From the NCBI RefSeq assembly GCF_022539665.2, contig NC_081332.1:6944001-7008000 (forward strand): a stretch of DNA of 64,000 bases, in the 5' to 3' direction. The stretch is from Daphnia carinata. Lineage: Eukaryota. A program made the translations under genes and the position numbers. Below are positions 11,168-51,582 of the stretch, piece by piece. The notes under the pieces are model-generated. The model was not told the origin of the DNA, did no database searches, and was given only the letters and a program-made list of their open reading frames with translations. Positions within the stretch are counted from its first letter, which is position 1, and the number at the start of each line of letters is the position of its first letter.

Positions 11168-11169
11168 TA

Positions 11170-21304: not shown

Positions 21305-21507
21305 TGTAAAGTTTCCAAATCCCGTGTACTTGCAGTGAGTTGCCGAAACAACTCCGCCTTACATGTTACAATCATGCAGTACTTATACTACTAAAGGATA
21401 CAGATATTGAAGGTAAAGTGGGAGGAGATAAGTCCACTTTCAGTTGTAAAACGCTTGAGGAATGTATGAGGTGTGGCTTCCTTTGGATAGCCTTTGGGCT
21501 CGTTACA
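21305..21507 (-). repeat. 3' LTR of element A
   Basis: TGTAAAG...CGTTACA, 203 bp, with an adjacent PPT (aagaggggaaggaa on the minus strand). About 11 mismatches to 51583-51785 by eye. Confidence 0.95.
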
Positions 21508-21775
21508 TTCCTTCCCCTCTTCGATAAGAAGAATTGGTCTTCTAATTTGCATGTTCCGTCACCAACTACATTCGTTGCTATGGGCAAATAAAATAACTGG
21601 TTCCTCCACCTAAGATTTATGGAAAAGAATTGTAGGTAATTTTAATAAAGTTGCTGGCGTATTGTCTTCTCTCTTTTCGTCTCTTATTCTTGCTTTTCTT
21701 TCTGCCCGGTATTTCGGCTATGCTGATTATGGCTTGTTCATTTCCCTCGCGGCTGTATTGTTGATGTTCCTTTCT

Positions 21776-22297
21776 TTAAGTTTTAGTCAGGGAATTACTG
21801 TTATGTTTTAGTTCCCATTTTTGGAATATGGTTTGCGCTCTTGTGCTGCATGTTTCTGATTCAGCCGCGTGTCCATGAGAATCTTTTATTCCTGCATCTG
21901 CTCCGTGTAGCAGTAAAATCTCGATCATGTCGATTCGGTTGAATCCGGTTGCTACGTGTAAGGCGGTTTCGCCTGAGTCGTCTTGTTGGTTGATATTGAT
22001 GATTCTCTTTGCGCAAATTTGGGTGGCCAGATCTTCTAGGCCATACATGGCTAAATAATGCAGAACGATTCTGCCGTCAGGTGTTGCAATGTTGATGTTA
22101 GTTGGTGTCCATATTAACTTTGAACATTCTTGGTTTTTGTGTGAGATTGCCAACATTAAGGGAGTTTCTCCGTTGTAGTTGCGAGCTGTAAATTCGCAGT
22201 TGTTATGTTTTAGGATCCTAAGTAACAGTAGATCATTTTCGGCCGCTGCGATATGGCCAATTGTTTTTCCGTGGTAGAGGTTCTCCAGCGCGAGCAC
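21776..22297 (-). CDS. Ankyrin-repeat protein carried between env and the 3' LTR of element A (5' end degraded or uncertain)
   Basis: Four ANK repeats: GKTIGHIAA, GETPLMLAI, GRIVLHYLA, GETALHVAT...LLLHGAD. Intronless and in the same orientation as the element. Confidence 0.88.
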   Translation of the reverse strand: MLALENLYHGKTIGHIAAAENDLLLLRILKHNNCEFTARNYNGETPLMLAISHKNQECSKLIWTPTNINIATPDGRIVLHYLAMYGLEDLATQICAKRIININQQDDSGETALHVATGFNRIDMIEILLLHGADAGIKDSHGHAAESETCSTRAQTIFQKWELKHNSNSLTKT

Positions 22298-22607
22298 GAT
22301 GAAGAGATGTTGCCGTTTACAAGAATTTTAGAAAAACATTTTGTTTTCGAGCATAATTATATGGATACTGATGCTCCTGATGATTTTGTTATTGATTTCT
22401 GAGTCTGTTAGTTTTCTAGTTGTGTTATTCGGAAATACAAAATTGTTGTTTGAGTTTGGTTGTTTTGTTTGTTTTTACTATAAATTTTTCAAGTATTAGA
22501 TAGTGGCTGGGAGGGTGCTAATTTATTATGGAATTGCCTATAGCGGCAATATTGACTTGTTAGCGGATCATTGTTAATGGACTTCACTTTCAATAACCTT
22601 GGAGATT

Positions 22608-25244
22608 TCACTTTTTGGCTGAATTACTGCTGTCTGTTTCTGGCATGCACCGACATAGGTCTTTCCAGACCATGCCATACCCGACGACGTAAGTACATGT
22701 GGTATGTTTTCCTGTACAACCGTTTAGGTGTGTCAGCTTCTTTGATAGATGGGTAGATTGATGAATTTGGTGCGCTTGGCCTTGGTGGGCTCGTTTGAAC
22801 TTGTCTTTCAGTTGACAGCTGTGCGGGTGCGGACGTTCTTATGAATGGTTGTTCGATGACAATGTCTGAATGGTAATCTGTTTCTCGTGCTGGTAGCATT
22901 GATACGAGTTCGTGTTGTTCCTCTATGCGATCGTCGCATTTTCTTGTAGGCTTCTGGTTTCTACGGATATGATTTTTAATCTTCAGATAGGGTTGCAAAT
23001 GATGAAGATCCGTAAGCATACGAGAAATAGCACAAATCCAATTGCTGAAAGACCTATTATTTTCAATTTGTCGAACCATGAGAACATATGATCTATCTGA
23101 TTATCTTGTTGTTCTGACATCACAATATCTCCAGAATTGGAATTTCCCTCTTGCAATCTGCCTACTAGGTCATTCAGGATATTTAATTGATCCATCTCCA
23201 TTGTCGCGTGTGCTGAGTGACTTTTCAGCGAGAAGTCGAAATTATTAAGGTGGAGTTCTTCAAATTCTGTAATGAGGTCTAGATTAGGCATGTTAATGGT
23301 AGGTTTCTGGCGTATCCAATCTCCTGTTGTAGAATTGCGTTCCCAGGTATGTGGATTTCCATTTAAATTTACTAACGGCGTTTTCCAAAAACAATCGGAA
23401 TATGGGTGAATTGACCATCCATCTGTTCCGATCGTACAATTCTTTCCTTCGTAAGTAAAGAACGGTTGAAATCCGCATTTTGTTTCGTTTGCTGATATAA
23501 AAATCCTTTTGGCTTCGCATTGTTGAAGTGTCATTGCTTGACCGAAGCCTTGTAATCTCGTGCAGATAGGTAAGCCTACTGCAGCTGCAGCCAAAATGCA
23601 TTGGTTTGGGCTAATATAACAGCTTGTGTTCTTTTAATTGCTGATAGTTGACAATAAACGTCTCGAATTTCTTTTGCAAGCTTGTTCTCGTGTTCCGTTT
23701 CGATGCTGATTTTATATTGGTCGTGCATTTTATTTAATTCTTATTTAATTTTGTCGTTGAGTTTTTCAATATTGTTCGGTAGACCGCTCTCCAAATTTTC
23801 ATTAATTAGTGAATCTTCAGTGTTCTGATCTATTGAAATTATCAGGGATTCTGCGGGTGGTAATTTTTGAATGTTTTTTTCCTCGATGGCCTGAATTTGA
23901 CTATATTCTGTTGTAGTCGTTGTTTAAGTTGTTGCTAATGGGGTCATTCCGCTTGTCTGTGTTAATGACTGCGGAGTCGTCGAACTTTCCTTTACTTTTG
24001 TCGTACTCGGCGTAGTCGAGCTTGGCTGATGCGTTATTGTTGTTGCTGTTGTTGTGGAACTTGTCGTTGTGGGCGTTGATGTTGTTGCTATTGTTGTGGA
24101 ACTTGTCGTCGTGGGCGTTGTTGTTGTTGTTGACATAAGCTTTGTAGTTGTAGTGGTTGTTGAGGTTGAAGTTACTTTAGCAGTTGTCGTAGATCTAATA
24201 GTAGTAGTGGTGGGCTTAGTGCTTGTTGACGTGATTATTGGTTTTGTAGTTATGGAAGGTTTTGTTGTTGTTGATGTCATACTGGGTTTGGTTGTCATTT
24301 TTTGCGTTATCGTTGCTTTGTTGGCTGCTGTGCTTGTAGCTGACTTACTTGTTGTCGTGGTTTTACCGTTGTTTTTGTCGTCGTTCCCAAGGTTGTTTTT
24401 ATTATGGGCTTTGTAGTCGTCGTAGCGCTTGTCGTTTTTGTGGATTTTTCTGTTGTGGGCGTGGCAGGGAGAGTGACCATAGTTTTGTTCTTTTCTGATT
24501 GGTTGTTGATATCCCTTTGCATTAGTGGCGGTATAGAGGGGAGTGCTTTCCCGTCCAATGGCTGTTGAGTATGTAGCGCTATAATGGCTGCCGCTGAAAG
24601 TGTCCTTATTTGATGTGGGTTGCGATATTCAAAGCTAAATTGTTGTTTTTTACTGGAGCTGTGACAATGCCCCAGGCTCACACGTCCTACTCTTTGTGTT
24701 AGACACTTCCTATCTGATGATGGTGAATATAAACCAGTTCTATCTGTTGCCAGGAGTTGTCCTGTGTGTTCGTATGTGCCCCAGATTGAGCTTGTGTTGG
24801 CGCATTCCTGGAGAACGAGCATTGTTGTGTTGGCTTTTACACAGTTGTTCGTGTTGAACGGTCTGATGGTGAAATCAGAGGTATATTCGAAAGCTTGTCC
24901 TCGTTCTGTCGTTCTGCTGCAGTTAGCAACTGTAGTTTGTGATCGCACTAATGGGTCATTACTGGTTACCAGTGTTCTAGTTCTTCTTGACATTTGGTCC
25001 AATCCGCGTCGCATTCTTCTAGTGTCATCTGTTTGTTTATTCCGTGATGAGTCAGACACTCGGTGCTTTCCCATTTTTCAACAATCCCCAGTCAATCATG
25101 TCCCAGATTATATTTCCGCTGCCGGGATTAGTTTTTAAAATTCCTCCGAATATCGACGAATTAATCGTTGTTGTTATCGCTCTTCGCTGTTCTTGTTGTA
25201 TCTCCTGCATTTCCGCTAACGTTGTATCCGGGAAGTTTTCTTGG
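22608..25244 (-). pseudogene. Element A env-like glycoprotein, 3' portion (ricin-like domain 2, Thr-rich mucin, C-terminal ectodomain, TM, tail), frameshifted
   Basis: Homologous to the B env at 42215-44810. TM IIGLSAIGFVLFLVCLRIFIIC. Tail with PSAP and CTGKHTTC..DLCRC. A signal-peptide remnant survives at 36075-36151. Confidence 0.9.
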
Positions 25245-26528
25245 AGGTCGGAGAAAAAGGCCCAGACGAAAAAGGCCCACGAAAAAGGCCCATACGAAAA
25301 AGGCCCATACAAAAAAGGACCACTTTTTTTCAATTTTATAAGTGGGCCTTTTTCTCCAGTCAATTTCCATGTTCCTAAACACTTTATATATATACTTTAT
25401 ATACTTGTTTCCAAAATGTAATTCCAACCTCCTATTCCGTGGAAGTTGGAATGTACAAAGGTTGGTAAGATGTACATAAGGTTTGCCGAGATGAAACAAT
25501 GTTAGCTTATGTACGCTAGTTAATCTTTGATTATTTATTCGGTAGCAATCTGATTTCGGATTATGTTAGTATTTATATATTGCTAATATCCCGTTAAATA
25601 AAGTTCATTTTTCACAATTTATGTTTATTTAATTACTATCGCTTCTTCTAATATAATATAAGAAATATATGTTTTTCGCACTCAGCCTTGTTTTGTCCAC
25701 CCTCTTTGATCATGCCCCCCCCCAACCCTTAGTCCATCTCCTTTATAACTTCCCTTTGTCGATACCTATGCCATAGGTAAAGACCACTGATTTGTTGTGA
25801 ATACGGAAACTGAATGAGTTCCGCGTGGCTTTTGTGGTTGCTGGGAACAAAGATATGTTAATACGAAGACTAGTTTATTATTATTAACATTTGATAAATA
25901 ATTTTTATAGGAAGAACATTACAAACTTAAACTATCGTTTGAGATAAGGACAAATAAAACTATTATAATTCAATATTGATTCTCATACCATTTATTTCCT
26001 TATCACATTTTCAATTCTTTTCACGATTACAAAGAGCCTCATAAATATTGTTACGTTGGCAATATCCGATTCGCCACTGCAGTAGCGACAACAGCGCTAG
26101 GACGGAAATCCCGCCCCAATTATGGCCGTCCATTGGAGCACCACCCTCGTCGCCGGATATAAAAGGGGCGATATTGCACTTCTGTGTGGCTTTTTGATTA
26201 ATTGGTTAGGGCAATTAGTTTGCAGTTGTGTTATTAATCCTTTTGGTGAAATACACATTATATTTTAATCTGAAGCACGACGTCTCTATCTTGGTACAAG
26301 ATCCATCCGTGACATGGTGTAGATGCAGGGTAACACCTGTTAGGCTGAGTAAGGTAAGCGCAATTGTTGTTCTTTTCGCACGGGTCTTGGGGAGTTTTTG
26401 AATAAGGAACCTGGAGGCAGGTGCTGTTTAGGGGTCTTTGGGAAGTGTGACCGGCCGGCTAGAAAGTGCCTTAAATTGCCGTGGTACAGGACCACAGACC
26501 TGGCCGATTTCCTTGATTCGCTGTTAGG

Positions 26529-29500
26529 TTGAAGACCCGTCCGAGTAAGTTGTTGAGAGTTGTTGGAGAGAAAGACGTAGCTCGGTGGATGAGTACGGAT
26601 CCGCCTAGGCAGAGCAGGCGTTTACGAGGGTTAGCCGCGTCCCCGATAAGCGGGGAAGGACAACGCAGCGTTGGTCTTGACGGAAGTCAGGCGGAATCTC
26701 TAAAGAGAGTTACAGAAGTAGGGGCACAGACTGCCCAAGCGATCGGCCATACCATTCCGAGAAGAGAAATCGTATCACTGAACCCGATCGGAGAATCGAA
26801 CGCGAGGACAAATTCCTCTTGTAGGTATCGGAAGCTCGTTCAGGAAGCAAGATCGAGAGATAGTGGTGTAGGAGAACAAACGTGTATTGATCCGAGGGAG
26901 CAACAGGAGGTAGCCGAAAAGCAAGGAATCTTTAACGAGTGCTCAAGGGAAGGAAGTGATAAGGGGTTAGACGATTTTTCTGGAGCTTTACCACTCGTGA
27001 TAGCACCAACGCTTGAAATGGCCCAGCGTGCTGAATTTAGGGGAAACGATGGACCTCCCGCCCGTGCACCTGCACAGGCAGGAGGAGCCGTTCAGCGTGC
27101 ACCGGCTCATCCATCGCAGTATCGTGAAGCACCAGTCTTCCGCGGAGGACCAGACGACGATGCCGCTGAATGGATGGAACGTTTCGAGAGGACCGCCAAT
27201 TTCAATGGATGGGGTCCCGCTGAGAAAGCGGAATACTTTGGCTTATTCTTAGAAGGTACAGCAAAGGATTGGCTAGCTTGTCAATTAGGGGAGGTGGTCT
27301 GGGACGATGTTGCTCCGGATGACGCCGAACCCGGGATAAGGGGCCTACGAACCCGATTTTTAGATACATTTCGATCGGAGGATTTCGACCGTTATCATAA
27401 AGCTAGGCTACGTAGCCGAAAGCAGGAGGCCTCGGAGAGGGTCGTAGGATATTTCTACGACGTGCTAAATCAGTGCCGTAGGTTGAACCCTAGGATGCCT
27501 GAAGCGAAGAAAATAGATTATCTGTTGCGTGGGCTTAATCAGCCTTTGAAGCGAGAAATGACCATTAAACAGCCCCGGACGACAGATGAATTTTTGAAAG
27601 CACTCAAGATTTATACTAGGGCATATGAGGATTCAGAGAAACCAAATCAGGCAGTTAATTTTATGGGACAAGCGAAGGATCCTATTCCACCCAAGCGAGT
27701 CACGTATGCTGACTCCGAAGAAAGGCAAACTCCGTTGAAACAAGAAGCCTACGAGTACGACGCAAAGCGAGACGGCACGCGCCAAGGGTCGCATGACGAG
27801 TTAAAAAATTTAATACGCGATATGGCAGCTCGGATAGAAGAGCTGGAACGAGGCACTAAACAACTACGCCTGGGAGGGAGAGGGGAGAAACCTAAACCCT
27901 CCCGAACAGCAGACGGAAGGCCAATCTGCCACCGATGCGGACGCTCCGATCATATTGCTCGTAACTGTGAGACCGATTTGAGTAATACGAGGCCACGATC
28001 ACCAACACCTAGTCGGGAAGGAAGGGAGAACGAAAGGAGACCAGATGGACGTGATGTGGACCGACGCGGACGTGAGAACTCGAGACGAGATGGAAGCCAA
28101 GATGGGAGGAGAAACGTAAGTCGAGAACGCTCGCGTTATAATAGGGACGATAGTAGGGAAAGTCGTAGCCCTAGAACGGTTTCTAGACCTCCAGCGGACC
28201 GTGATCAGGGTCAAATGGCGGTGGGAATGATTTCACTCGAAGAAAAAGGGAAGAAGAATGATGAGCTTAAGGAGGCTGAAAATGAAGACAAAGGGGCTGG
28301 CTGTGAGATGGAATCGCTCGGAGAAAAGGGGGAAGAGAATTGTAAAGTCGAAGAAGGCATAAAGGATAAAGGAGAAAACGTACCGATCTATTTGACCTAC
28401 TCTCCGCGTCTCATATTCGAAGAAGTCAACTGTAAGGGATTGGCCGTCAAGGCAGTTATTGATACTGGAGCCGTAATTTCAGTTGCTTCGCCAAGCCTGC
28501 AAGAAAAGCTAAAAGCACCGTTGGTGGAATGGGAAGGACCGGCCATCATTATGGTAAATGGTCAAAGTACACAACCTCTTGGTGCCATTCAGTTGGAAAT
28601 TGAACATCGGGGCCACAAGGCCAGTGGAAAAATCATTCTCTTGGAAATGAAAGGAATAGAACTACTGTTAGGGAACGATTTTTTAAGCCAGTTTGAGCGA
28701 TTGGTGGTTCAGTACAAGAAGACGGGGGCAGTGGCATCTCTAGGTGAATTGCCAGTGAATGTAATCAACGAGCAGATAATCTCGCCTCCAAAGCTGGTAG
28801 CCAAGATAGGAAGAATGCTGCCACCGAGAACCTTTGCTCTAGTGGAAGTAGAGCTTACCGCGCAAGAGAAAAACATTTGGATGGTAGAGCCTTCGGACAA
28901 GTTAGCTCGAGTCAAAGGCATTACTACTGGGAAGGTATTTGTGTCCAGTGAATCCCCGCTAAACCGAGTGTTTGTTGTGAACTTAACGTACCAGAGAGCC
29001 TATATCCGAGAGGGGACCGTTTTGGGACAGATGGAAGAAATAGAACCTGTTGTTGTGACAATAGATGAGGAAGAGAAAATGGGAATAAAGGATGACGAGG
29101 AGAATCTAGCCGTAATGGCACTCAGTCGAGGAAAGTTCTCTCCGTCCAGCGTCGCCCCTATTCCCAGGGAGACATTCAGGGCTAGGATTGCCGAAAGCTT
29201 ATCACCCCCAGAAACAGAGAGATTGATTGACCTGTTAGAAGAATTTCATTCATGCTTCGCGCTGGCCGATAGTGAGCTGGGAGTTTGTCGTGTGGCCAAG
29301 CATCGAATCGACACGGGCAACACACCACCAGTTCACCAACCTCCGTACAAGAGCGCATGGAAAGAACGAGCCATTGTACAGCGACAGGTCGACGAGATGC
29401 TGGAAAAAGGTGTCATTGAGCCTTCCACCAGCCCTTGGGCATCGCCAGTTGTCTTGGTGAAAAAGAAAGATGGAAATTGGAGATTCTGCGTGGACTATCG

Positions 29501-32024
29501 GAAGCTAAACGTCGTCTCTGTGCAAGATGTTTACCCACTACCGCGGATTGAGGAAACCCTAGCCAGGATGGGGAACGCCTGCATTTTTTCGACAATGGAT
29601 TTAGAAAGCGGATACTGGCAAGTGCCTATGGACGAAGCTGATAAAGCCAAAACAGCATTTATCACGCCCGACGGGCTCTACCAATTTTTGGTAATGCCGT
29701 TTGGTTTAGCTTCCGCTCCCGGAACATTCCAACGGATGATGGACCTGGTACTAGCCGGGCTCCGATGGACGATCTGCCTCGTCTACTTAGACGATATCAT
29801 CATCTACGCGGGGGATACCAGGGAACATCTAATACGACTCCGGCAGGTACTGAGTGCCTTACACAAAGCTGGATTAAAGATCAAACTAGTAAAGTGCCAA
29901 TTTGCAGCCCGGGAAGTAAAAGCCTTAGGGCACGTAATCAGCGGGGAAGGCATACGCCCAGACCCAGAAAAACTAAAGGCAATTGAAAAATTTCCGTCTC
30001 CGTGTTCCTTTCATAAACCCGCTGACCGACTAAAATGTGTTAGGAGCTTTATCGGACTCTGTTCGTACTACAGGCGATTCATTGCGCAGTTTGCGCATAC
30101 TGCTAAACCCCTAACAGACATGTTTTAAAAAAGGGCATGCTTTGTATGGAGAGAACCTCAAGAAGAAAGCTTCAATTTATTAAAACAAGCGCTGATCAGA
30201 GCCGCTACGTTAGCCTATCCTGATTTTTCCAAACCTTTCGAGATCCATCCTGACGCGTGCGATTACGGTCTTGGAGCGGTGTTGTTACAACGCATCGACA
30301 ACGTGGAGAGACCCCTCGCCTACGCGAGTCGTCTCTTGACAAAAGGCGAGAACAATTATTCCATCACGGAAAAAGAATGCCTCGCGATGGTCTGGGCGGT
30401 GAAGAAATTTAGAAGCTACATTTGGGGAATTGAGACCGTGGTTGTGACTGACCATCACGAGCTTTGTTGGCTGTTAAGTAAAAAGGATCTGGCCGGACGT
30501 TTGGCTCGTTGGAGCCTGCAATTACAAGAATTTTTACTAAGGATTGTACACCGTAACGGTAGACTGCATGCGGATGCGGACACGTTATCGCGTTATCCAG
30601 TCAACATTGTCACAGAAACAGATGTGTCACTACCCTGCATAGTGGCAGCCTTAAGTATCGATCATGACAATAAAGAGAAATTACAACGCGCCCAGCAAGA
30701 GGAATGGGATCAAGTGTTTGCTGCAATCAAACGAGGAAAACTCCGAGGGCAGTATCGGATTCAAGATGGCCTGTTATTCTGCGAGAAGATCGTCGATGAT
30801 GGACGACTCCTAAAACTGTGTGTACCCCAAACATTCAAAGAAGAGGTTATGCGCGCTTGCCATCATGACATCACGGCTGGACACCTCGGAACTAGACGCA
30901 CTCTAGCGAAAGTGCGAGCTCGTTACTATTGGTGGAAAATGGACGAAGACGTTAGTAGATTCGTTCGCAGTTGTCGAGAATGCCAATCACGTAAGTCAGT
31001 GTACCAGCGGCCAGCCGGGTACATGGAAGTAATAAAAACAGAACGTCCGTTTGAAAGGTTGGGAATAGATATCCTGGGACCGTTCCCACTATCAAAAATG
31101 GGGAACAAACACATCGTCGTGGCAGTAGATTATGTTACGAAATGGGCAGAAACTAGAGCGCTTCCGAGTGCCGACGCCAAAGAAGTGGCCGATTTCCTGG
31201 TAAAAAGTGTGTTGTTACGTCATGGCGCCCCGCGCCAGCTAACTACGGATAGAGGCCGCTGTTTCATCGCAGAACTCACCCAACATGTGGTGAAGGCCAT
31301 GGAGACTAACCACCGTATGACAACGGCCTATCGTCCGCAAGCGAACGGCTTGGTGGAACGGCTGAATCACACGCTGTCTGACATGCTTTCAATGTATGTC
31401 AGCTCAGATCATCGGGACTGGGATGAGTCACTACCCTACGTGACGTTCGCGTACAATACCAGCCGTCAAGAGACCACCGGAAAGACGCCATTTTACTTGG
31501 TGTATGGGAGAGAAGCCGTTCTCCCCATCGACGCGATGGTAGGCGCGGATCCCAACCCTGCGTCGCCAAAGGACAGGGATCCGACCGAATGGGCAATCGA
31601 ACGTCTCCAACAGGCACGATTGTTAGTGCAGGAGCGCGCAGCCCTTATACACCGTAACCAAAAGGAACAGTATGACAAAAGAAGGAGAGAAGCACCCACT
31701 TACCTGCCTGGAGACGAAGTTCTGGTGTACAAACCTATTCGAAAGGTAGGAAGATCGGAAAAACTTTTGAATCGATGGTATGGTCCATATAAAGTGGTAC
31801 GCCAGACCACCCCAAGCAACTACGAAATACGCCTAGGCCGCTCTCCCAAAACAGAGATAGTACATGTCGAGCGTATGAAATCATTCATTGATGTCGTTGG
31901 AACTCCGCCACCGCTCCCCAAGCCGGACAGCAAGGATGTATCCCCGGAAACGTCACAATCTAACTTACACGAGGCGTCGCCAACTGCCGCCCCAGAAGGG
32001 TCAGCGACCCCGAAACGAAACTGA
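26529..32024 (+). pseudogene. Element C gag-pol with one in-frame stop at 30126-30128
   Basis: Capsid-like gag, CHRCGRSDHIARNC knuckle, VIDTGA protease, VYLDDII RT, RNase H, HHCC and DDE integrase, GPY motif. ORFs 26529 and 30279 share a frame. Confidence 0.93.
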
Positions 32025-34080
32025 CGATGGTCAACGGAATCAGGAAAGTGATGTCAATGGAATGGGGACCCCGCCTGCAGAGGAGACGGTACCGGAACCA
32101 GGAATACCAACAGCAACCCCGGATGGGACTGGTTTAAGACGATCAGCTCGAGGAAGGATACCGAGGAAGCAATTCATACTAGCACTACCATTTTTCCTTT
32201 TGTTTTTGACACTAAACGCACCGTTGAAAATATCGGCAAAAGAGATCGTGGCCTACCAAGGAGTAATCTTCAAACCCGAAAAAGATGTAGCCTTCTCAGA
32301 CTCAGAATGGATAGTTGTCTCCGACTTCACCTTCGACACTCTAGAAAAAGTCATTAAACAATTACAGTTTATATTAGAAGTGCGAATGGGTACATTGATT
32401 TACCGGAACGACGCCTTGGAAGACAAATTCAAAGAACGTTTTCGGCGGCAGCTGAATGTTCGCACACAGGTAGAAATAGCAAAACTGCGTGAAAGCCATC
32501 TACGACTTAATGAGTTGAAGGAGGCCGTTGGAATAAAGGATCCAAGAAGGAAGAGAGCAATAGCTGATGGCGGAGGAAAGATCCTAAACTGGCTGTTTGG
32601 AGTAGCCACGCAGGAAGACCTAGAACATGTGAACGAGAGAATAAACAAATTATCCACAGAAACCACGTCAATTGTGCACGCCATGGAGGTTCACGCATCT
32701 CTAATTAATGAAACCTTGTGGGAAACTCAGGCTGCAGCAAAAGCCATCGGAGAGTTACGGGTCACCTTTAACCACGTCGAAGCCGAAGCATGGAAGGTCA
32801 GCCAACAAGTTGGAAGTTTTCAGCAAGAGATGGAGCGGCAAGCGTCAGCCACCGTGAAAATCGATAATGTCTTTCGACACGTTCAGAAATCCCTCGCTTG
32901 GATAGACGAATCGGTGACCAATTTCGCCGTTGGACTAGCGACAATGGCGACAGAAAGGCTACCAGCTACGCTTTTTCCGCCTAAGCAAGTAGAGTTAGTG
33001 TTAAAAGAAGTGAAAAACACCTTGCCAACGGGTTGGACGCTGAGTCCTTCAATCCAAATGGGTGATGTTTGGAAATTCTATAAAGAAGCCACAGTTTTAG
33101 TAGCCGCGGTAGATGACTTTTTAAGGATCTTTATTCACTTACCTGTGTTTGAATTTCCATTTAGCTTTACGCTTTACGAAGTGGTTAGTCTGCCGCGCCC
33201 GGTGAATGATGCGACACAAGGTGCCCAATTTCATCCTTTACCACCGTATCTGGCTGTGGCAACCGACCAGCAAACATTTGTGGAACTATCAGCAAAAGAC
33301 GCGTCTCGTTGCTTAACATCGCCCACGGCAATTTGTCCAATAAGTAGAGCCATCAACAAAAAACACCGCGAGCCGGGATGTGCCATGGCCCTATTTTTAA
33401 AAGATGAAGAATTAAGCCATAAGAATTGTGCAACCAAATTGTCAAAGTGGGATGGACAACAGACGGCGTATTTGGGAAACCGTCGCTGGGGTTTTTCTGC
33501 CGTCAAAGATACTACAATTACGATATCCTGTCCAAGTAATCGACGAACGTCAAATACGATAATCAAACGAGAGTCGTTCGACATATTCGAAGTGCCCATG
33601 TCCTGTTCGGTATATACAGATGACTAGATCTTCCAAGCCAGCCTCAAGAAAAATATCCGCCATTCTTCAGGCAATAGAACGCTCCCTTCTTTAGCCGAAT
33701 TAGAGGAAGAAGGACAAGTGTGGCAAGAGGACAAGGCACCTGATATCACAAACCTACGGCCTCGTTATATCACGGACTGGAACAATGTCACGTTGTTATC
33801 TCGCCGCACGATGACGCAAGCACGGATTTCCCTGATGGCACAACACTTACGGTCATTGGAAGAAGAGGAGCAAGAGAGAAAAGGCGTAGATCATCTAGGA
33901 ACAATTCGTTACCCCTACGAATGGGTCGCCGTACTGCTGGCTCTATGTACCGGCCTATCATTATTCGCGTTCTTCTCTCGCCGCTATGCCCTTTTCACGC
34001 TCGGAAATCTATCCAACCGAGTGGCTGAATTGGAACGCCGCCTTGCGACACATGAAGCGTTGATAGAGGAGGAAGTGTAA
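32020..34080 (+). pseudogene. Element C env-like class I fusion protein (errantivirus/baculovirus F-like) with a TAG at 33625
   Basis: Hydrophobic signal FILALPFFLLFLTL, furin site RRKR followed by fusion peptide AIADGGGKILNWLFGVAT, heptad repeats, Cys-rich region, C-terminal TM WVAVLLALCTGLSLFAFF. ORF 33718-34080 is in frame with 31888-33627. Confidence 0.88.
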
Positions 34081-36177
34081 TTTTACCTGCATTGGAGTAA
34101 TTTTATGTGTTTTTGTAGTCCCACAGTAGTCTGATTTTTTTTTACTTACTCTTTTTGGTGTTCACATTACTTTGTAGTAATTGATGGTTCCTTTCACTCC
34201 ATTTATTTGTTAAACTCACACAAACATCGGCACTAGAACGGCACTTTAGAAAAGCAGCGGGAACGATGTCTTGTAGGATCGAGAGTTAAGAACAGACTGA
34301 ATAGCGTGGGTGGAAAAGGACGCTAACTCGCCCACGCCATCTCTTGGCTGGCCGATGAGTATTTGTACCGCGAGCGCTAGATGGCGTGGCGGCTGCCCAA
34401 ACTTTTATTCGTAGAAAATGCTTTTATTTACTTTATCCCCTTTTATAAGTAAAGTCCATGTCGTGTAATCCCTCTCTTCCCCGTAACACACAAAAAAAAA
34501 AAAAAATTAGATTTTAGAATTCGACACAAACGCGATCGGGACGATTCGCGACTTAAGGAGGGGGATGTTACGTTGGCAATATCCGATTTGCCACTGCAGT
34601 AGCGACAACAGCGCTAGGACGGAAATCCCGCCCCAATTATGGCCGTCCATTGGAGCACCACCCTCGTCGCCGGATATAAAAGGGGCGATATTGCACTTCT
34701 GTGTGGCTTTTTGATTAATTGGTTAGGGCAATTAGTTTGCAGTTGTGTTATTAAGCCTTTTGGTGAAATACACATTATCTTTTAATCTGAAGCACGACGT
34801 CTCTATCTTGGTACAAGATCCATCCGTGACAATATATTAAAATCATAACCTACTGCTATAAATATGCCAAGCGATTACTGCTGACTGTTACCTTGGAGCG
34901 CTTTTCACCAAAGCAATAAATAGTTCGAGCAAAACTGGAATATGCAATTTGCGCAGGAACGTCTATGAGTCAAACTTAAATAGTTAATGCATGGCTTTTT
35001 TAAAGAGCAATATTTTGTGAAAGAATAACTTCACCTTTAGTCCGAAAGAACCATCTACGTCTCTGGTAATAACTCGCGTTTTTCCAGCTATTATAAATGA
35101 ATTTTTGCGTTTCGAGTCTTGTTTTCCCCCTTATGCATATTTTCAAGCAGCTATTGTTTACCTAATTATACATCATATACTACAGTGAAATATAATAAAG
35201 CTTTGCATTTGCGGTCAACAAAACTACTAACAATTACAAATCCATTTTAATTATTTTGTACCATTAAGGACTTCTTTTAATGAGTCTGTTATTAGTGAAG
35301 ACACTAAACCTTTTAAAATGAATCTAACATTTTTTTTTCTTCAAATTTTCCAAAATCATGGAAGGCATGCCAATGTATTTTTATAAAAGACTATCGCGCC
35401 ATGTCTTGCACATGAAAGAACACGAGTTTAGCTCATCTATGAGTTGGTATCAGTATTTCATACGATAAGTTTTCTTTTTTTTTTTTGATTTGGTTTAATT
35501 ACTTTATGTTCTGTCTTTTCAGTTTCTTTTTCTTAATGTTGGCTTTTCTCTTTTACTGTTGTTGTTCCTTTCTCTTTTCCTTTTCTTCAGGTTTCCAGGT
35601 CCAGTCTCACAAAACAAAGTCCTTCATGGTAGAAAACTGTGGCTCATAGACGTTCCTACGCAAATTGAATATTCCAGTTTTGCTCGAACTATTTATTGCT
35701 TTGCTGAAAAGCGCTCCAAGGTAACAGTCAGCAGTAATCGCTTGGCATATTTATAGCAGTAGGTTATGATTTTAATATATTTATTAGGCTCTTTGTAATC
35801 GTGAAAAGAATTGAAAATGTGATAAGGAAATAAATGGTATGAGAATCAATATTGAATTATAATAGTTTTATTTGTCCTTATCTCAAACGATAGCTTAAGT
35901 TTGTAATGTTCTTCCTATATAAATTATTTATCAAATGTTAATAATAATAAACTAGTCTTCGTATTAACATATCTTTGTTCCCAGCAACCACAAAAGCCAC
36001 GCGGAACTCATTCAGTTTCCGTATTTACAACAAATCAGTGGTCTTTACCTATGGCATAGGTATCGACAAAGCCTTGATGGAATGAGATATTGAATGGAGA
36101 TATTGATGGAATGATGGTTAGTAAGTGGATGAATATTATTATCAGTTCCATCTGTGAAATAAAAATTTGAAGGTTTT

Positions 36178-39100
36178 TTAGAATCTTGATACTTCATTAC
36201 GTTGCCGTAAGTTGTATCGTGGATTCGTCATTCTAGTAGGCGCAGGATAATTTGGTATAGGACCGGGAATATTTGGTGTGGTGATGTTGTGAAACTCTTC
36301 TTCTGTCGTTTGATATATACACTTTTTAGGGGGAGGCTTTCTTTCGTTGTTGCTGCTGTGTTTTCTTGGCCTTCCTGGCCCTCTTCGTACTGCCTCATTA
36401 CCCGGTCGGTTGATCTCATATGATGTCCCTTCTGTTCCTTTATTTCCTGGGACGTACAATTTTAGGCGGTTGACGTGTACTATTGATTTTAGTTTTTCAC
36501 TGTTGGCATTTTGAATCTCGTAAGTGAGATCTGAGTAATTTTTGGTAATTTTGAATGGTCTATTCCACTTGTTGATGAGTTTTCCGGCAGTTGGTGGGGC
36601 TTTTAGTAGCACAAAATCACCAATGTTGTATTTAATTGCTTTTGTTCCTTCGTCGTAATATCTTTTTTGTCTTGTCTGCGCCCGAAATAGGTGTTCCTTC
36701 GCTAGTTGCTGAGCCTTCTTCCATTGATGTGAGTACATTACACTGGTGTCTTCGTATGTCTCGTATCGTCTGTCTATTTTGATGTCGTTCGAGAGCACAG
36801 GGTGTCTTCCAAAGAATAGGAAGAATGGGGTTTGTTGTAGTGTTGATTGCTTCGCTGTGTTGTAAGCAAATGTGACGAACGGGAGATATTTGTCCCAATT
36901 TCCAGGTTCACTTCCCACGTAGCAAGCTAACATGTTACACAGGGTTCTGTTAAATCGTTATACTAATCCGTGTGTTTGGGGGTGGTATCCTGTTCTTATT
37001 TGTTTGATCTTGAACATTTTGCAAATTTCTTGGATTAAGTACGACAGGATGTTAGTCCCTTGATCTGTTAGGACTACTTCGGGGGATCCATATTTCGTAT
37101 AAATATCATAAACCAAGATTGTAGCAATTGTTTGGGCAGTGTGATCTTTCATCGGCACTAAAAAAACGAAACGACTGGTGTAATCTGATAGGACTAAAAT
37201 GTACCTATGTCCCTTTTCGCTTATTGGAACTGGACCCACAATATCCATCGCAAGTCTTTCCCACACCCTTTCAGCTGGGGACATAGGTTGCAATGGTGCT
37301 TTACTTCCTCCCATAGCTGTGCGTTTTACGCATTTTAAGCAATTTTTGATGTATTCTGTTACGTTTTGTCGCATGTGTGGAAAGAAGTATTGCTCTCGCA
37401 GTCTGGCTATTGTTTTTTTCTATTCCTAAATGTCCTGCTAACATGTGGTCATGATTTGCTTGTAAGATCCCTGTGACTGACGTCCTAGGGACTACTAGGT
37501 TTCCTTGCCTATCCGTTAATAAACCTTTTTCGTTGATTATAAAGCTGCTTCTAAATCTGTTACTTTTCTGATCTTCTTGTATATTCATCATTAATTTTTG
37601 GCAATATTTATCTGCTTGCTGTTGTTCTAGCCATTTGTCTTCTCTCCAAGACCTTTTGCTTTCACTTCCAATTTCTCTTTCCATACCGTTGCTTTCCTTT
37701 TTATGATTTTCCCTTTCAAAACTTTCACTTTCTGTCTGACTACTTTCGTTTTCTCTCTCAAGTTGTTCTTGTTTCCTTAATTTTTCAATTTGTAGTTTGT
37801 TTTTTATTCTTTCACTTTCTTTTCGATTTCTTTCAAGCTCTTTTATGACAATTTCTTTTTCCTTTGCCCTTGTTTCTACTCTTGCTAGTGGCACTATGGG
37901 AATACGGCTTAGGGTGTCAGCATTTTGGTGCGACTTCCCAGGCCGGTATCCAATGACGATGTCAAATTCTTGTAGTTTGAGTGCCCATCTAGCTAATCTT
38001 CCTGCGGGTTCGGTCTTGCTCATTAACCATTCTGAAGGTCTATGGTCGGTAAATACGGTAAATCTGCGTCCGTATAGATATGTCCTAAATACGTCAATTG
38101 CGTGGATAATTTCGTAAGCCTCTTTCTCTGTGGTTGACCACTTGGCCTCGCGATCGTTCAGATGTTTAGAGCTATACGCGATGACGACTTCCACGTCGTC
38201 TGATTCACGGGTTTCCCGTACGTCGGACTCCGCTGAATCCGCTGATTGAGGTAGAGTCTGCATCTGAGCCAAGACTGCTCCTATTCCATATCCTGAAGCA
38301 TCTGTGTAGATGATAAATTCGCGCGTGAAATATGGATACCCTAGGATAGGTCTAGTTATGAGACAGTTCTTGATACAGTCAAAAGCGTCCTTTTGTTCCT
38401 CTCCCCATTTCCACTCGGCTGATTTTCTCGTTAGCGCTGTCAGTGGGTGGGCTTTATCAGCAAAAGCCCTGATGAATTTTCTATAATAGCTAGCCAGACC
38501 TAAAAATGAGCTCAATTCTTTCACGTTTTTGGGAGCGGGGTATTCTATGATTGCTTCTAATTTTTCCGTACTCGGTGTTATTCCTTTTTTCGAAACAATG
38601 TATCCTAAATAATCTAATTCTTCCTTGAAAAATTCGCATTTCTTCCGTTTTAACTTTAGTCCTGCGTCTTTAAGAAGCTTAAACACCGCTTCTAGATGTG
38701 TCACATGTTCAGCAATATCATTACTGAACACTATGATGTCATCCAGATAAACCAATGCGAACCTGAACAATACTGATTTCAAGATGTTATTCATTGCACG
38801 TTGAAAAGTGCTTGATGCATTTGTTAATCCAAATGGCATTCTATTAAATTCGTATTGTCCAAGTTCACAGATGAAAGCGCTTTTGTGTTTGTCACTTTCT
38901 TCTATCTCGATCTGCCAGTAGCCGCTCAGTAAGTCCAATGTTGAGAAGTAAACTGATCCACTCAATGCTTCAATGGTGTCATCAACTCTTGGTAATGGAT
39001 ATTTGTCTTTTACGGTTATTTTGTTTAGTGCCCTATAATCAATACAGATACGCATTTCTTCGTCTTTTTGGGTACCATTACAATGGCTGCTGCAAATGAA

Positions 39101-40169
39101 CTGTGACTTTCTCTAGTAATTTTGTTACTTAACATTACTTCAATTTTTGTTTTTACAATATGTTTTAATGCTTCTGGAGTTCTGCGCAATCTTAGAGTAA
39201 TTGGGGCGTTGTATCCTATGTTAATGGGATGCTTTACATCAGTTGCTAGGCCCAAATCTGATTCTTTTTCTGCGAATAGGGCCCCATGTTTTTTTAATAG
39301 AATTTCAATTTTAATGCGTATCTCTTCAGAGATGTTGGTTGTTTCACCTTCGTGGCTTTGTCTGATTCGTTTTGATTTCATATTATTGTCTGATTGGGAA
39401 AAAGATTCTAGGCTGCGGTAATCTGCTTCTGTAAGGTCATTGTTATCGTTATTTTCTGGTTTTTGGTCTGGGAGGAGTGGAATGTGAATGCCTACTTTGC
39501 CAAATGTTAGGCTATATATTGGGTGTATATTTGTTCCAAAGTTGTGTTCTACCCCAAAATGGTCGTAATTGATCTGTCTGTTTCTAGTATTAATTTTTAC
39601 ATTGTTGCTTGATAAGAAGTCTAAGCCCAGGATACAAGTTTCACTTAAGTTTCCCATGATAAAGAAATGATGATTAATAACGTGATTGTCGTTAATGATA
39701 ATTGAAAATTCAAATTTTCCCATTGATTTTAGTATTTCCCCTGAAACCGTTCTAAATATTGGTGAGGGAGTGTTTTTAATTTCTTTAAGTTCTTCCCTCT
39801 TCTTTAGGTTGAAAAATATGCTGTCTGAAATTAAACTGGCTGCGGCCCTTGTATCTACTAAAGCGTATTTCTTTTCCAAAAATTCTAACGGGTAAACGTA
39901 TTAGTTTGGGTATCGCTGATTCTAAATTATTTGTTGGGGAATTATTTGGTAAGGATATCGTGTTTACTACATTGGACGGCGGTTCGGATTGTTGATACGT
40001 GCCATATCTGTCCAACATTCTCGTGGAATGCGTCCTCTTTTATTGCCATTGTAACAGATAATAATCTTATTCCCAAGGGTGTCGAGGGTGTTTGGCTGGT
40101 TTTGTCGCTGCTATGGGTATTGTTGAGGATAACCCGGGTTTTGTTGATACACTTGTTGATTGTTGTGTG
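36178..40169 (-). pseudogene. Element A pol (PR-RT-RH-IN) and 3' end of gag, frameshifted; gag truncated by B's 3' LTR
   Basis: ALVDTRA, VYLDDII, TDASGYGIGA, HDHMLAGHLG, MDIVGP, TDQGTN, ending YNLRQRNEVSRF*. Confidence 0.93.
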
Positions 40170-40372
40170 TGTAAAGTTCCTTATACCTCGTGTATTACAG
40201 TGGATTGTCGTAACAATTCCGAATTTCATGGTACAAACATGCAGTATTTATACTACTTAAGAACACACAAATTGAAGGTGAAATGGGAGGGGATACGTTC
40301 ACTTTCACTTGTGAAACGCTTGAGGGATGTAAAGGGTGTAGCTGTCTTTGGATAGCCTTTGGGCTCGTTACA
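40170..40372 (-). repeat. Internal LTR (3' LTR of element B), a diverged variant
   Basis: TGTAAAG...CGTTACA, 203 bp, same PPT as A. Clearly more diverged from the outer LTRs in its first ~120 bp. Confidence 0.93.
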
Positions 40373-40592
40373 TTCCTTCCCCTCTTCAATAATAAGAATT
40401 GGTCCACCAATTTGCTTTTTCCGTCACCGTCTACAGTTGTTGCTATGGATGAATAATAAAACTTGTTCCTTCACCAAAAACATATAAAAAAGAGTCATAT
40501 GTGTTTTTTAAAAAGATTGTTGACGTAGTGCCTCCTTTCTTTTCTGCTTTGATTCTAGCTTTTCTTTCTGCCTGGTATTTCGGCTATATTGA

Positions 40593-41165
40593 CTATAGTT
40601 TGCTCCTTCCCCCTTTGGCTGTCTTGCTGGTTTTCTCTTCTTTTAGTCGAGAGGTTACCGTTATGCTCCTGTTCCCATTTTCCGAGGAGGGTTTGCGCTC
40701 TTTTACTGCATGCTTCAGTTTCCTTTTGTTGGTCGTCTGGTTTGTTCGTTTTCGCGGAGGTTGACATTGAAGATAGTCTTCACTGTCGTATCCTATTGTA
40801 AAGTCAACACTGTAGTCACTTTCCAAATCGGGTTCTATTCCACTATACGCCATTAATCCCTCGTTTTCATCATCACTTGATTCACTACTGTCATTTACTT
40901 CCTCTTTATTTCCGTAAAAGTCGTTCTTTTCCGTTTCTATTCCATTCCATCCCATGTATTGCACTAATTTCTTGTTTTCATCCGCACTTTTCGCACTTGC
41001 TTTTGCTCTGCAGTCCGGTTGGCTATCCTCACTTTCGGTGTCGTCGATGGTGATCAGTTCGTATACTTTTTCCATTTTCCCGGGGATTATGGTACCTTTA
41101 TAGTCGTAAACTTTGGTGATGAAATTATTAGCCATGTTGGAATGAATTAATGGTACGTGGTGCAC
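40593..41165 (-). CDS. Unknown acidic/basic ORF in the post-env slot of element B
   Basis: 190-codon ORF with an acidic tract (DSSESSDDENE) and a basic NLS-like tract (PPRKR..KRKLK). Sits where A has the ankyrin ORF; no recognisable domain. Confidence 0.45.
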   Translation of the reverse strand: MHHVPLIHSNMANNFITKVYDYKGTIIPGKMEKVYELITIDDTESEDSQPDCRAKASAKSADENKKLVQYMGWNGIETEKNDFYGNKEEVNDSSESSDDENEGLMAYSGIEPDLESDYSVDFTIGYDSEDYLQCQPPRKRTNQTTNKRKLKHAVKERKPSSENGNRSITVTSRLKEEKTSKTAKGGRSKL

Positions 41166-42214: not shown

Positions 42215-45200
42215 TTACTTTTTGGCTGAATTACTGTTGTCTGTTTCTGACATGCAACGACATAGGTCTTCCCAAACCATGCCATACCCTACTACGTAAG
42301 TACATGTTGTGTGTTTTCCTGTGCAACTTTTGGGTGTGTCGGCTTCTTCGATAGATGGGTAGATTAATGAATTTGGTGCGCTTGGTCGTGGAGGGCGCAC
42401 TTGACCTTGTCTTTCCATTGTCAGTTGTGTAGGGGCGGGTGTTCTTACGAACGGTTGTTCGATGGCTATTTCTGAATGATAATTTGTTTCTCGTGCCGGT
42501 ATCATTGATGCCAGTTCGTGGTCTTCCTCTATGCCATCATCGTATCTGCTTGTAAACTTCCGGTTTCGGCGGATATGTTCTTTAATCTTCGAGATGGGGT
42601 TGCAAATGATGAAGATTCGTAAACATACAAGGAATAGCACAAATCCAATCGCTGAAAGGCCTATTATTTTCAATTTGTCGAACCATGATAACATGTGACC
42701 TATCTGATTATTTTGTTGCTCTGACATCACAATATCTCCAACAGAATTGGAATTTCCTTCTTGCATTCTGCCAACTAGGTCATTTGGAATATTTAATTTT
42801 TCCATCTCCATTGTCTCGTGTGCTGGATGACTTTTTAGCAAGAAGTCGAAATCATTTAGGTGGACTTCTTCAAATTCTGTAATGAGGTCTAGATTAGGCA
42901 TGTGGATGCTAGGTTTCTGTCGTATCCAATCTCCTGTTGTAGAGTTGTGTTCCCAGGTGTGTGGATTTCCATTCAAATTCACTAACGGTGTTTTCCAAAA
43001 ACAATCGGAAAATGGATGAATTGACCATCCATCTGTTCCGATCGTACAGTTTTTTCCTTCGTAAGTAAAGAACGGTTGAAATCCACATTTTGTTTCATTC
43101 GCTGATATAAAAATTCTTTTGGCTTCGCATTGTTGAAGTGTCATTGCTTGACCGAAGCCTTGTAGTCTCGTGCAGATTGGTAAACCTACTGCTGCTGCGG
43201 CCAAAATTCCATTTGTTTGAGCTAAGATAACAGCTTGTGATCTTGATGATGGCTGATAGTTGACAATACATATCTCGAATTTCTTTTGCGAGTTTGTTCT
43301 CGTGTTCTGTTTCAATGCTGATTTTGTATTGGTCGTGCATCTTGCTTATTTCGTATTTAATCTTTTCGTTGAATTCCTCGATGTTTTTGGGGAGACCGCT
43401 TTCTATATTTTCAGTATTTAATGATTCTTCTGTTTTCTGGTCCATTAACAGGGATTCTGCTGGCGGTAAATGTTGAATATTGTCTTCTTCTATGGCCTGA
43501 ACTTGATTTTTTTCTGTTGTAGTCGTTGTTTCTGCTGTAGCTAATGGGGTCATCCTGGCTGTCTGTGTTGATGGTTGTGGGGTCGTCGAACTCTCTTTTA
43601 CTGTCGTCGTACTTTGCGTAGTTGTGTTTGGCTGGCGCGTTGGTGTTGGAGCTGTTGTTGTGGAACTCGTAGTGGGCATAGTTGTCGTTGACGTAGGCTT
43701 AGTAGTTGTACTTGTTGTTGAAGTCGAAGTTATTTTTACAGTTGTCGTAGGCCTAGTTGTAGTGGTAGGTTTAGTGCTTGTTGACGTGATTATTGGCTTT
43801 GTAGTTGCTGGGGGTTTTGATGAAGTTGACGTCATATTTGGCTTAGTAGTAATTCTATGCGTTGTTGTGAGTTTGTTTGTTGCTGTGGTTACAATTGGCC
43901 CAATTGTAGTCGTAGTTTTTACCGTTGTTTTTGTCGTTGTTCCCAATGTTGTTTTTATTGTTGGCTTCGAAGTCGTCGTCGCGCTTGTCGTTGTTGTGGA
44001 TTTTTCTGTTGTGGGCGTGGCAGGGGGCGGGGCCAATGTTTCATTCTTTTCTGATTGGTTGTTTACTTCTCTTTGCATCAGTGGTGGAATGTATGGGAGG
44101 TTTTTCCCGTCCAATGGGTGTTGAGTGTGTAGTGCAATGATGGCTGCCGCTGAGAGCGTTTTTGGCTGGTGGGAGTTCCGATATTCGAAACTAAAATGTT
44201 GTTTTTGGCTGGAGCCGTGACAATGCCCCAGGCTCACTCGTTCTACTCTCTGTGTGAGACACTTTCTGTCTGATGAGGGTGAATGTAACCCCGTTCTATC
44301 TGTCGCCATGAGATGCCCTGTGTGTTCGAATGTGCCCCAAACTGAACTGGTTTTAGCGCATTCCTGGAGCACTAACATTGTCGTTTTGGCTTTGATACAT
44401 GTGTTTGTATTAAAAGGTCTGATGGTAAAATCAGATGTGTATTCGAAAGCTTGTCCTTGTTTTTTTGTTCTGCTGCAGTTAGCAACTGTAGTTTGTGATC
44501 GCACTAATGGGACATTACTGGTTACAAGTGTCCTTAGTTCTTCTTGACATTTGGTCCAATGCGTGTTGCATTCTTCTAGTGTCATCTGTTTGTTTACTCC
44601 GTGGTGTGTTAAACAGTTTTCATTCGGTGCTTTTCCATTCTTCAATAGTCCCCAGTCAATCATGTCCCAGATTATATTTCCGCTACCGTGGTTAGTTTTT
44701 AAAATTCCTCCGAATAGTGGCGAATTAATCGTGGTTGTGATTGCCTTTCGTTGTTCTTGCTGAATTTCTTGCATTTCTGCCAAAGTGGTGTCCGGGAAAT
44801 TTTCTAGGATGTCTGGATTGGTGTTTACAGTTTCGAAGATCCATTTTTGTGTTATGCTGTTTTTGTCCTTTCTGCACTCTGTTAGTATGATAGTTTGTTG
44901 GTTTCCGAGTGTAATACAGAGGTTTGATTCCTGTGAAATTAATTGATAATTTTGTTGATCTAGGATCCATCTTGTAGAATATTCTGAACATTTGGCCACG
45001 ATCACTCTGGCTGCTTCTCCTTCTGTGATACATATATCACCGTTCTGCACTCGGATTGTTTGGTCAACGATGTATTCGAATTCTGATCCTTGTGGAAGTG
45101 GATCATCGTTTTTGAGACGAAAGTATGAGGTTACCTGGTTGCTTTCTTCTGGTTTGTATATTATGTATATCGTTGCGTTGTAATTCACGAACCGGTCTTT

Positions 45201-46254: not shown

Positions 46255-46277
46255 CTGCGAAAAGAAAATTTGTATGT

Positions 46278-48900: not shown

Positions 48901-48929
48901 TGGAGCGTTGTTTGGTAGGGATATTGTGT

Positions 48930-51449: not shown

Positions 51450-51582
51450 TTGATGGTGTTCCTTGGTCTGGTAGAGCTGTTGGAGACTCGTCGGGGAAAT
51501 GTAGAGCACAATCACTGAAATAATTTACGGGTAAGAAACTTTGTACTGGACAACAAGTGTGAGTCTCGTTGGGACAACTAAT

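What the first reader, a model, noticed from the sequence alone, without database searches (positions are those of the whole stretch)
21776..22440. Ankyrin-repeat gene carried inside an LTR element
Seen: an intronless four-ANK ORF lies between the env stop (22608) and the PPT/3' LTR. Established: small ankyrin proteins act as host-immunity modulators in polydnaviruses (IkB-like vankyrins) and poxviruses. Inference: a captured accessory gene, possibly antagonising NF-kB signalling or silencing. Function is unproven.
Basis: partly seen in the sequence, partly recalled or inferred. Interest (0 to 1): 0.8.

Follow-up and report, generated by a model that had tools for sequence, protein, structure and literature searches.

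The report
Water-flea retrovirus carries ankyrin accessory gene
This is a broken piece of an extra ankyrin-repeat gene that a family of envelope-bearing, retrovirus-like elements of water fleas keeps between its envelope gene and its end repeat; relatives keep the gene intact and conserved, and it likely helps the element by binding a host protein in the nucleus.

Summary
Four ankyrin repeats do lie between the env stop and the PPT/3' LTR, but not as an intact small ORF. There is no ATG at 22440, an in-frame stop sits at 22328-22330, and homology to relatives starts only at 22285. The piece is the 3' half of a 413-543 aa gene (acidic region, CxNCxxKT motif, about seven ankyrin units, basic tail). 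A second copy in the window keeps the complementary parts in the same slot. The element is a gB-type errantivirus close to the published Dcar_errantivirus_6. All 8 of the 21 related loci with over 1 kb behind env carry an ankyrin ORF there, and 3 of 48 env-like proteins are D. magna env-ankyrin gene models. Relatives show purifying selection, the ankyrin tree broadly follows the env tree, and a sister env clade carries a different ankyrin gene in the same place. So this is a real clade-wide accessory gene that my searches did not find in print. The IkB/vankyrin reading has no specific support: sequence and fold searches give only generic ankyrin matches. Function is untested.

The parts
21305..21507 (-). 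3' LTR of copy A (203 bp, TGT...ACA)
   Evidence: 192 of 203 identical to the LTR at 51583-51785; 166 of 204 to the LTR at 40170-40372
21508..21522 (-). polypurine tract
   Evidence: read directly; same tract before the LTR of copy B
21617..21775 (-). basic C-terminal tail of the accessory gene, beyond the stop at 21776-21778
   Evidence: same frame; matches P0007 to 21623; A-vs-B dN 0.21, dS 0.97 over 63 codons
21776..22285 (-). ankyrin remnant of the accessory gene in copy A: four repeats plus cap, no start codon of its own before 22156
   Evidence: Pfam Ank_2 E 2.7e-18; 83-94% identical to D. carinata models P0001/P0002, 77% to P0007
22286..22607 (-). spacer between env and the remnant, with the deletion junction near 22286; 22286-22380 unassigned
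   Evidence: 22381-22494 is 74% like 41837-41956; in-frame TAA at 22328-22330; no significant match for 22286-22380
22608..25279 (-). 3' part of env of copy A, in several frames
   Evidence: 83% DNA identity to env of copy B over 2677 columns; tblastn pieces in different frames; ricin-B lectin domain
25754..36071 (.). element with 295-bp terminal inverted repeats inside env of copy A, itself holding a + strand F-type errantivirus at about 26049-34831
36095..39900 (-). env 5' fragment, integrase, RNase H, RT and protease of copy A
   Evidence: Pfam RVT_1, RT_RNaseH, Integrase_p58_C, aspartyl protease; order RT-RH-IN
40170..40372 (-). 3' LTR of copy B
40507..40719 (-). C-terminal tail of the same accessory gene in copy B, joined to the N-terminal part with the ankyrin repeats deleted
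   Evidence: P0007 residues 423-492 match 40710-40507 and residues 161-175 match 40752-40708
40746..41135 (-). acidic N-terminal part of the accessory gene in copy B, with its ATG at 41135
   Evidence: 80% to P0002 residues 1-103, 64% to P0007 residues 25-162
42215..46332 (-). env of copy B (gB-type by likeness to a published family; ricin-B domain, Thr-rich stretch, TM-like segment)
   Evidence: about 93% like Dcar_errantivirus_6 over about 160 residues, compared by eye
46376..51335 (-). pol (integrase largely missing) and gag
   Evidence: Ty3_capsid E 6e-9
51556..51785 (-). 5' LTR (51583-51785) and decayed primer-binding site
   Evidence: the intact site in L008 is one base from the tRNA-Gln 3' end listed

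Best explanation
The stretch is a deleted remnant of an ankyrin accessory gene that a clade of envelope-bearing Ty3/gypsy elements of water fleas carries between env and the 3' LTR; the full protein likely enters the nucleus and binds a host transcription or chromatin factor to favour the element's expression. Shown: position, the breaks in this copy, the longer architecture (acidic low-complexity region, CxNCxxKT, ankyrin stack, basic cluster), linkage to env across lineages, purifying selection in relatives. Predicted: a disordered acidic N-terminus and a stack of about seven ankyrin units. Inferred: expression from a spliced or internally started RNA, nuclear location, the ankyrin stack as binding surface and the acidic region as recruiting arm. 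This copy is probably not functional. My odds: about 0.9 for a clade-wide accessory gene; about 0.45 for the nuclear transcription/chromatin role.
For: P0007, P0008, P0009 and P0207 join the acidic region to the ankyrin repeats, and window copies A and B each keep complementary parts in the same slot. 3 of 48 env-like proteins are D. magna models that run from this env into the same gene, 37-38% identical to P0007. Of 21 env loci, 8 have over 1 kb behind env and all 8 carry a same-strand ankyrin ORF; 6 of the 8 are uninterrupted. L008 reads env, ankyrin, PPT, LTR, primer site, gag, pol. L005 vs L008 ankyrin core: 40/20/108 differences at codon positions 1/2/3 in 182 codons, dN 0.18 with dS saturated. 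The env tree splits 100/100 into a clade with this gene and a clade with a second ankyrin gene. The N-terminus is 20-27% Asp/Glu in 7 of 7 proteins with the Cys motif, and basic clusters lie behind the repeats or before the motif. Model: pLDDT high over residues 101-350, low over 4-101; it superposes on 7-repeat domains.
Against: No expression, localisation or binding data. Nuclear location rests on simple basic-cluster patterns that are common by chance. The fold match is tied among AnkB, Bcl-3, gankyrin, Notch and EHMT1 (Z 19.6-20.8), so no partner is indicated. PPT and LTR behind the ankyrin gene were seen in only 1 of the 8 loci; L003 has about 1 kb after the ORF with no tract found. 13 of 21 loci are too short to test. 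The DNA context of the D. carinata models was not seen. The D. magna fusions are automatic gene models. Metagenomic contigs of multicopy elements may be collapsed, and their hosts are unnamed. The ankyrin tree has long branches and its deep splits have only 87-88% support.
Confidence: 0.6

Rival explanations
1. The protein is an IkB mimic that binds host Rel/NF-kB proteins and damps Toll/Imd signalling, as polydnavirus Ank proteins do.
For: Similar repeat number; Bcl-3 is among the tied best fold matches (Z 20.7, rmsd 3.2, 219 aligned, 17% identity) and IkB-beta is listed (Z 19.2, rmsd 2.5, 200 aligned). No DSGxxS-type degron in 13 of 13 sequences scanned (motif recalled). An enveloped element might meet innate immunity.
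Against: The fold matches are ties with non-IkB ankyrin proteins. Polydnavirus Ank-H4 and -N5 consist of only an ankyrin domain (PMC3359993 passages), whereas the intact relatives are 413-543 aa with large extra regions. The best viral fold hits are pox and giant-virus proteins at 14-26% identity.
Confidence: 0.2
2. The protein acts in the cytoplasm on the element's own cycle (Gag, Env tail or membrane traffic) or recruits a host enzyme there.
For: Tight co-inheritance with env. Env ends in a conserved Cys/His-rich tail. Ankyrin stacks are general adaptors (established knowledge).
Against: Two weakly related ankyrin genes fill the slot behind homologous envs, which fits a host-facing role better than a fixed structural one (inference). 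Basic clusters suggest nuclear import.
Confidence: 0.25
3. It is passively carried host DNA, a one-off transduction without function for the element.
For: Both window copies are broken, and P0002 looks like a further shortened form.
Against: Present behind env in lineages whose ankyrin proteins are only 33-38% identical; strong third-position bias; open frames in 6 of 8 loci; outside the family the closest proteins were at most 36% identical in the three searches. The window copies are also broken in env and pol.
Confidence: 0.04
4. The truncated four-repeat piece in this copy is itself a selected, functional mini-gene.
For: The frame is open over 183 codons and 94% identical to part of P0002.
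Against: No ATG before 22156; the junction cuts between repeats; copy B has a different deletion; LTR divergence is only 5-6%, so an open frame needs no selection (inference).
Confidence: 0.06

Closest known systems
Branchiopod HSV/gB-type errantiviruses, closest Dcar_errantivirus_6 (PMC13524379; seen: passages, supplement searches, part 1 of supplementary file 3, rows of file 2)
   Same: gag-pol-env Ty3/gypsy layout; env N-terminal region about 93% identical by eye (11 differences in about 160 residues); 7 copies listed for D. carinata.
   Different: [quoted passage not shown] The four related families looked up are listed without LTR or primer-site calls.
Polydnavirus vankyrins / Ank proteins (PMC3359993 passages; PMC3757122 listing only)
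   Same: Ankyrin protein encoded by a virus-like element of an arthropod; no degron pattern found.
   Different: Vankyrins have an IkB-like domain, and the two studied consist of it alone. This gene is about three times longer, with acidic, Cys and basic regions, and shows no IkB-specific likeness.
Burro giant gypsy elements of planarians (PMC6431247 passages)
   Same: Ankyrin repeats encoded by a Ty3/gypsy element.
   Different: There the repeats are inside a 4,873-aa ORF1 polyprotein; here they form a separate ORF behind env.
Extra ORFs of bdelloid LTR retrotransposons (PMC5408684 abstract and one passage)
   Same: Additional ORFs captured 3' of pol.
   Different: GDSL esterase and DEDDy exonuclease as ORF3; 'ankyrin' occurs 0 times.
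Accessory genes of complex vertebrate retroviruses between env and 3' LTR, such as nef, tax/rex, tas/bet (recalled, no call)
   Same: Same slot; host-facing regulatory role is the working analogy.
   Different: No sequence relation tested or claimed; different retroelement family.

Membership tests
Ty3/gypsy errantivirus, gB-type env | LTRs, PPT and tRNA primer site | tested here: met
   Three 203-bp TGT...ACA LTRs and PPTs; primer site decayed in the window, intact and tRNA-Gln-like in L008
Ty3/gypsy errantivirus, gB-type env | gag, then PR-RT-RH-IN order | tested here: met
   Ty3_capsid, aspartyl protease, RVT_1, RT_RNaseH, integrase
Ty3/gypsy errantivirus, gB-type env | env of the gB type after pol | tested here: met
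   About 93% like Dcar_errantivirus_6, listed as ENV_HSV (compared by eye); env fold not predicted here
Ty3/gypsy errantivirus, gB-type env | target-site duplication around the outer LTRs | tested here: inconclusive
   3 of 4 bases match; the flanks read as gag/protease and RT of one older gypsy element
Polydnavirus vankyrin | protein made of an ankyrin domain only | tested here: not met
   Intact relatives are 413-543 aa with acidic, Cys and basic regions; only the remnant is small
Polydnavirus vankyrin / IkB family | IkB-like ankyrin domain | tested here: inconclusive
   Bcl-3 Z 20.7 (rmsd 3.2, 219 aligned) tied with AnkB, gankyrin, Notch, EHMT1
Polydnavirus vankyrin / IkB family | binds Rel homology domains and inhibits NF-kB | not testable with these tools
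Cellular IkB (Cactus type) | N-terminal phosphodegron | tested here: not met
   Recalled pattern D[ST]Gxx[ST] absent from 13 of 13 sequences
Poxvirus ANK-PRANC proteins | C-terminal F-box-like PRANC domain (recalled) | tested here: not met
   No F-box, PRANC or SOCS-box Pfam hit at E 0.1 in P0007 or the 6 locus ankyrin proteins scanned

The most novel reading that the evidence does not exclude
Water-flea gB-type errantiviruses are 'complex' invertebrate retroviruses: a whole clade keeps a dedicated accessory slot behind env, filled twice by different ankyrin genes (and followed by a fifth ORF in one subclade), whose products counter host silencing or innate immunity.
Probability: 0.35. Interest if true: 0.8.

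Novelty: new variant of a known kind. Interest (0 to 1): 0.62.

Why it matters
Errantiviruses are described as gag-pol-env elements. A conserved gene behind env, kept under selection across a clade of cladoceran elements, would give an invertebrate parallel to the accessory genes of complex retroviruses. It offers a single, testable protein for asking which host pathway restricts enveloped retroelements in a model crustacean. It also explains several Daphnia gene models named 'ankyrin repeat protein' or 'tankyrase-like' as parts of retroelements rather than host genes.

Tried and rejected
No whole genome was held, so copy number and context in this genome were not examined. No sequencing run was listed, which is no evidence on expression. 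Direct scans with the remnant found no confirmed locus in metagenome or viral contigs; viral contigs gave nothing for env or the second ankyrin type and 3 weak generic hits for the first. The full HMMER search was swamped by long repeat proteins; 3 of its best 150 were family members. No donor gene was found by sequence, fold or Atlas features. No IkB-family chain was among the best 60 in three PDB sequence searches; this does not exclude the family. An antisense ORF in the spacer of copy B (41496-41879, +) had no match in the loci or elsewhere in the window, and its apparent likeness to 22286-22380 failed shuffle tests: rejected. PxVxL (1 of 9 type I sequences), LxCxE and tankyrase-binding patterns (0) are not conserved: rejected. 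YN00 failed on saturated pairs; NG86 dS was saturated in 16 of the 17 locus comparisons, so no exact ratio is given for them. A model of the second ankyrin type and an Atlas look-up of the extra C-terminal domain were not obtained. No complex was predicted. Three look-ups of earlier findings returned nothing. Paper searches: searches gave 0 papers; searches listed none that, from title, abstract start or passages read, describes an ankyrin ORF behind env. Subscription journals, Repbase entries and bioRxiv supplements were not searched.

Full report
Observation. On the - strand, ankyrin repeats (Pfam Ank_2 E 2.7e-18) lie between the env stop at 22608-22610 and a purine tract followed by a 203-bp LTR at 21305-21507. 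The ORF is not as described. The frame has a TAA at 22328-22330, is open from 22327 to 21776, and has its first ATG at 22156, inside a repeat. There is no ATG at 22440.

What the piece belongs to. The closest proteins are Daphnia carinata gene models: P0001 (83%), P0002 and P0006 (93-94%), P0007 (78%), P0008 and P0009 (67%), plus an unnamed representative P0207 (58%). All other listed hits were at most 36% identical. P0007, P0008, P0009 and P0207 are 385-499 aa and carry an acidic region before the repeats, and three of them a CxNCxxKT motif. P0001 and P0007 align to the window only from 22285 down; P0007 continues past the stop at 21776-21778 to 21623. So copy A lacks roughly P0007 residues 35-277. 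DNA at 22381-22494 is spacer, 74% like the spacer of the second copy. 22286-22380 could not be assigned.

A second copy in the window. A related element (copy B; env 83% identical, LTR 166 of 204) has, in the same slot, the acidic N-terminal part with its ATG at 41135 and the C-terminal tail, joined with the repeats deleted. A and B are thus complementary remnants of one gene. Both elements are decayed: env is in several frames, B lacks most of its integrase, and A is interrupted by nested insertions.

The element. It has Ty3 capsid, protease, RT, RNase H and integrase in gypsy order. The env N-terminal region of copy B differs from Dcar_errantivirus_6 at 11 of about 160 residues, counted by eye; that family is listed as HSV/gB-type with 7 copies (PMC13524379 supplement). 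The host is therefore most likely a Daphnia close to D. carinata (inference). The outer LTRs are 192 of 203 identical; the target-site match is 3 of 4 bases.

Linkage to env elsewhere. Of 48 proteins found with env, 3 D. magna models (P0145, P0146, P0163) run on into the same ankyrin protein at 37-38% identity to P0007, two of them with the acidic region and Cys motif. An env profile fetched 21 loci. Thirteen have 562 bases or fewer behind the match and cannot be judged. The other 8 all carry a same-strand ankyrin ORF right behind env; 6 are uninterrupted, L008 has one stop and L003 one frameshift. Three (L003, L005, L008) are the window's type. Five are a second type; L012 and L013 show RT and integrase upstream, L011 integrase. 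L008 reads env, ankyrin, PPT, LTR, primer site, gag, pol, which may be a tandem, a circle or collapsed copies; it is the only one of the 8 where PPT and LTR were seen. The hosts of these contigs are unnamed; one env cluster includes a D. pulex protein.

Selection and history. In the ankyrin core, L005 and L008 differ at 40, 20 and 108 of 182 first, second and third codon positions (dN 0.18, dS saturated). All 10 second-type pairs show the same bias. The tail shared by copies A and B gives dN 0.21 and dS 0.97 over 63 codons, against 0.037 and 0.34 for env; that sample is small. The env tree (23 rows; L017, L018, L020 left out as too short) splits 100/100 into a clade holding all first-type elements and one holding all second-type elements. 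Within the first type the ankyrin tree broadly follows env, with long branches and 87-88% support at deep nodes. The two types align at 24%, and each profile scores the other type no better than generic viral ankyrin proteins, so two captures are possible but not shown.

Structure and mechanism. The model of L005 (mean pLDDT 64, 9 sequences) has a disordered N-terminus, helices at 91-143, six helix pairs at 166-347 and a separate helical C-terminal part. Residues 120-350 superpose on 7-repeat domains, with AnkB, Bcl-3, gankyrin, Notch and EHMT1 tied at Z 19.6-20.8. Foldseek and sequence searches give only generic ankyrin hits. The N-terminus is 20-27% Asp/Glu in 7 of 7 proteins with the Cys motif, and basic clusters are present. 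I infer a nuclear adaptor: the stack binds a host transcription or chromatin factor and the acidic arm recruits or mimics, favouring the element's expression (about 0.45). An IkB mimic (0.2) or a cytoplasmic helper (0.25) remain open. None of this was tested. The window's piece has no start codon ahead of the repeats and is probably inert.

Comparison with what is known. It works, by position and likely role, like the accessory genes of complex retroviruses (recalled). It is not a vankyrin by size and architecture: the polydnavirus proteins studied in PMC3359993 consist of the ankyrin domain alone (passages). Ankyrin repeats are known inside ORF1 of planarian Burro elements, and LTR elements are known to capture ORFs downstream of env (PMC6431247 passages; PMC5408684 abstract). 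The survey that lists this family does not mention ankyrin in its text or held supplements, nor does the D. pulex LTR survey in its main text (PMC2996953 passages). 'errantivirus' with 'ankyrin' gave 0 papers; searches added no description. Repbase and subscription journals were not searched.

Verdict. The finding is real but misdrawn: a broken copy of a longer gene. The gene is a conserved, clade-wide accessory ORF of cladoceran gB-type errantiviruses, apparently undescribed, with function untested. New variant of a known kind; interest 0.62.

Noticed in passing
L009, L011, L012, L013, L021, directly behind env: A sister env clade carries a different ankyrin gene (repeats first, acidic tail; 47-52% identical to L011). 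It scores no better against the window-type profile than generic viral ankyrin proteins. Four of four full-length members share an L-K-[VL]-R stretch in the tail; likeness to BET-binding motifs is recalled and untested.
   Followed up: partly
L011:6618-7208, L009:6738-7427, end of L013: A further acidic ORF behind the second ankyrin type, with a shared LDV..RK[IV] stretch seen by eye; no convincing Pfam hit.
   Followed up: no
L003, L005, L008, C-terminal part of the ankyrin ORF: A conserved helical domain of about 80 residues after the repeats, absent from the window lineage; no Pfam hit.
   Followed up: partly
window 42215-46332 (-): The env holds ricin-B lectin domains and a Thr-rich stretch, and ends in a conserved Cys/His-rich tail; 'lectin' does not occur in the main text of the errantivirus survey.
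   Followed up: partly
window 26049-34831 (+): A young F-type errantivirus (LTRs 98.9% identical, Baculo_F E 8e-25, ATAT on both sides) nested in an element with 295-bp terminal inverted repeats (25754-36071).
   Followed up: no
window 21305-51785: Copies A and B form one composite with only three LTRs; B appears to sit in gag of A with its 5' LTR lost, and the composite interrupts an older gypsy element.
   Followed up: partly
L021: A contig of a Bacteroidetes MAG holds this env and ankyrin gene; probably animal DNA mis-binned (inference).
   Followed up: no
window 11167-11746 and 13050-13629: 580-bp inverted repeat, 98.6% identical, probably a DNA transposon.
   Followed up: no
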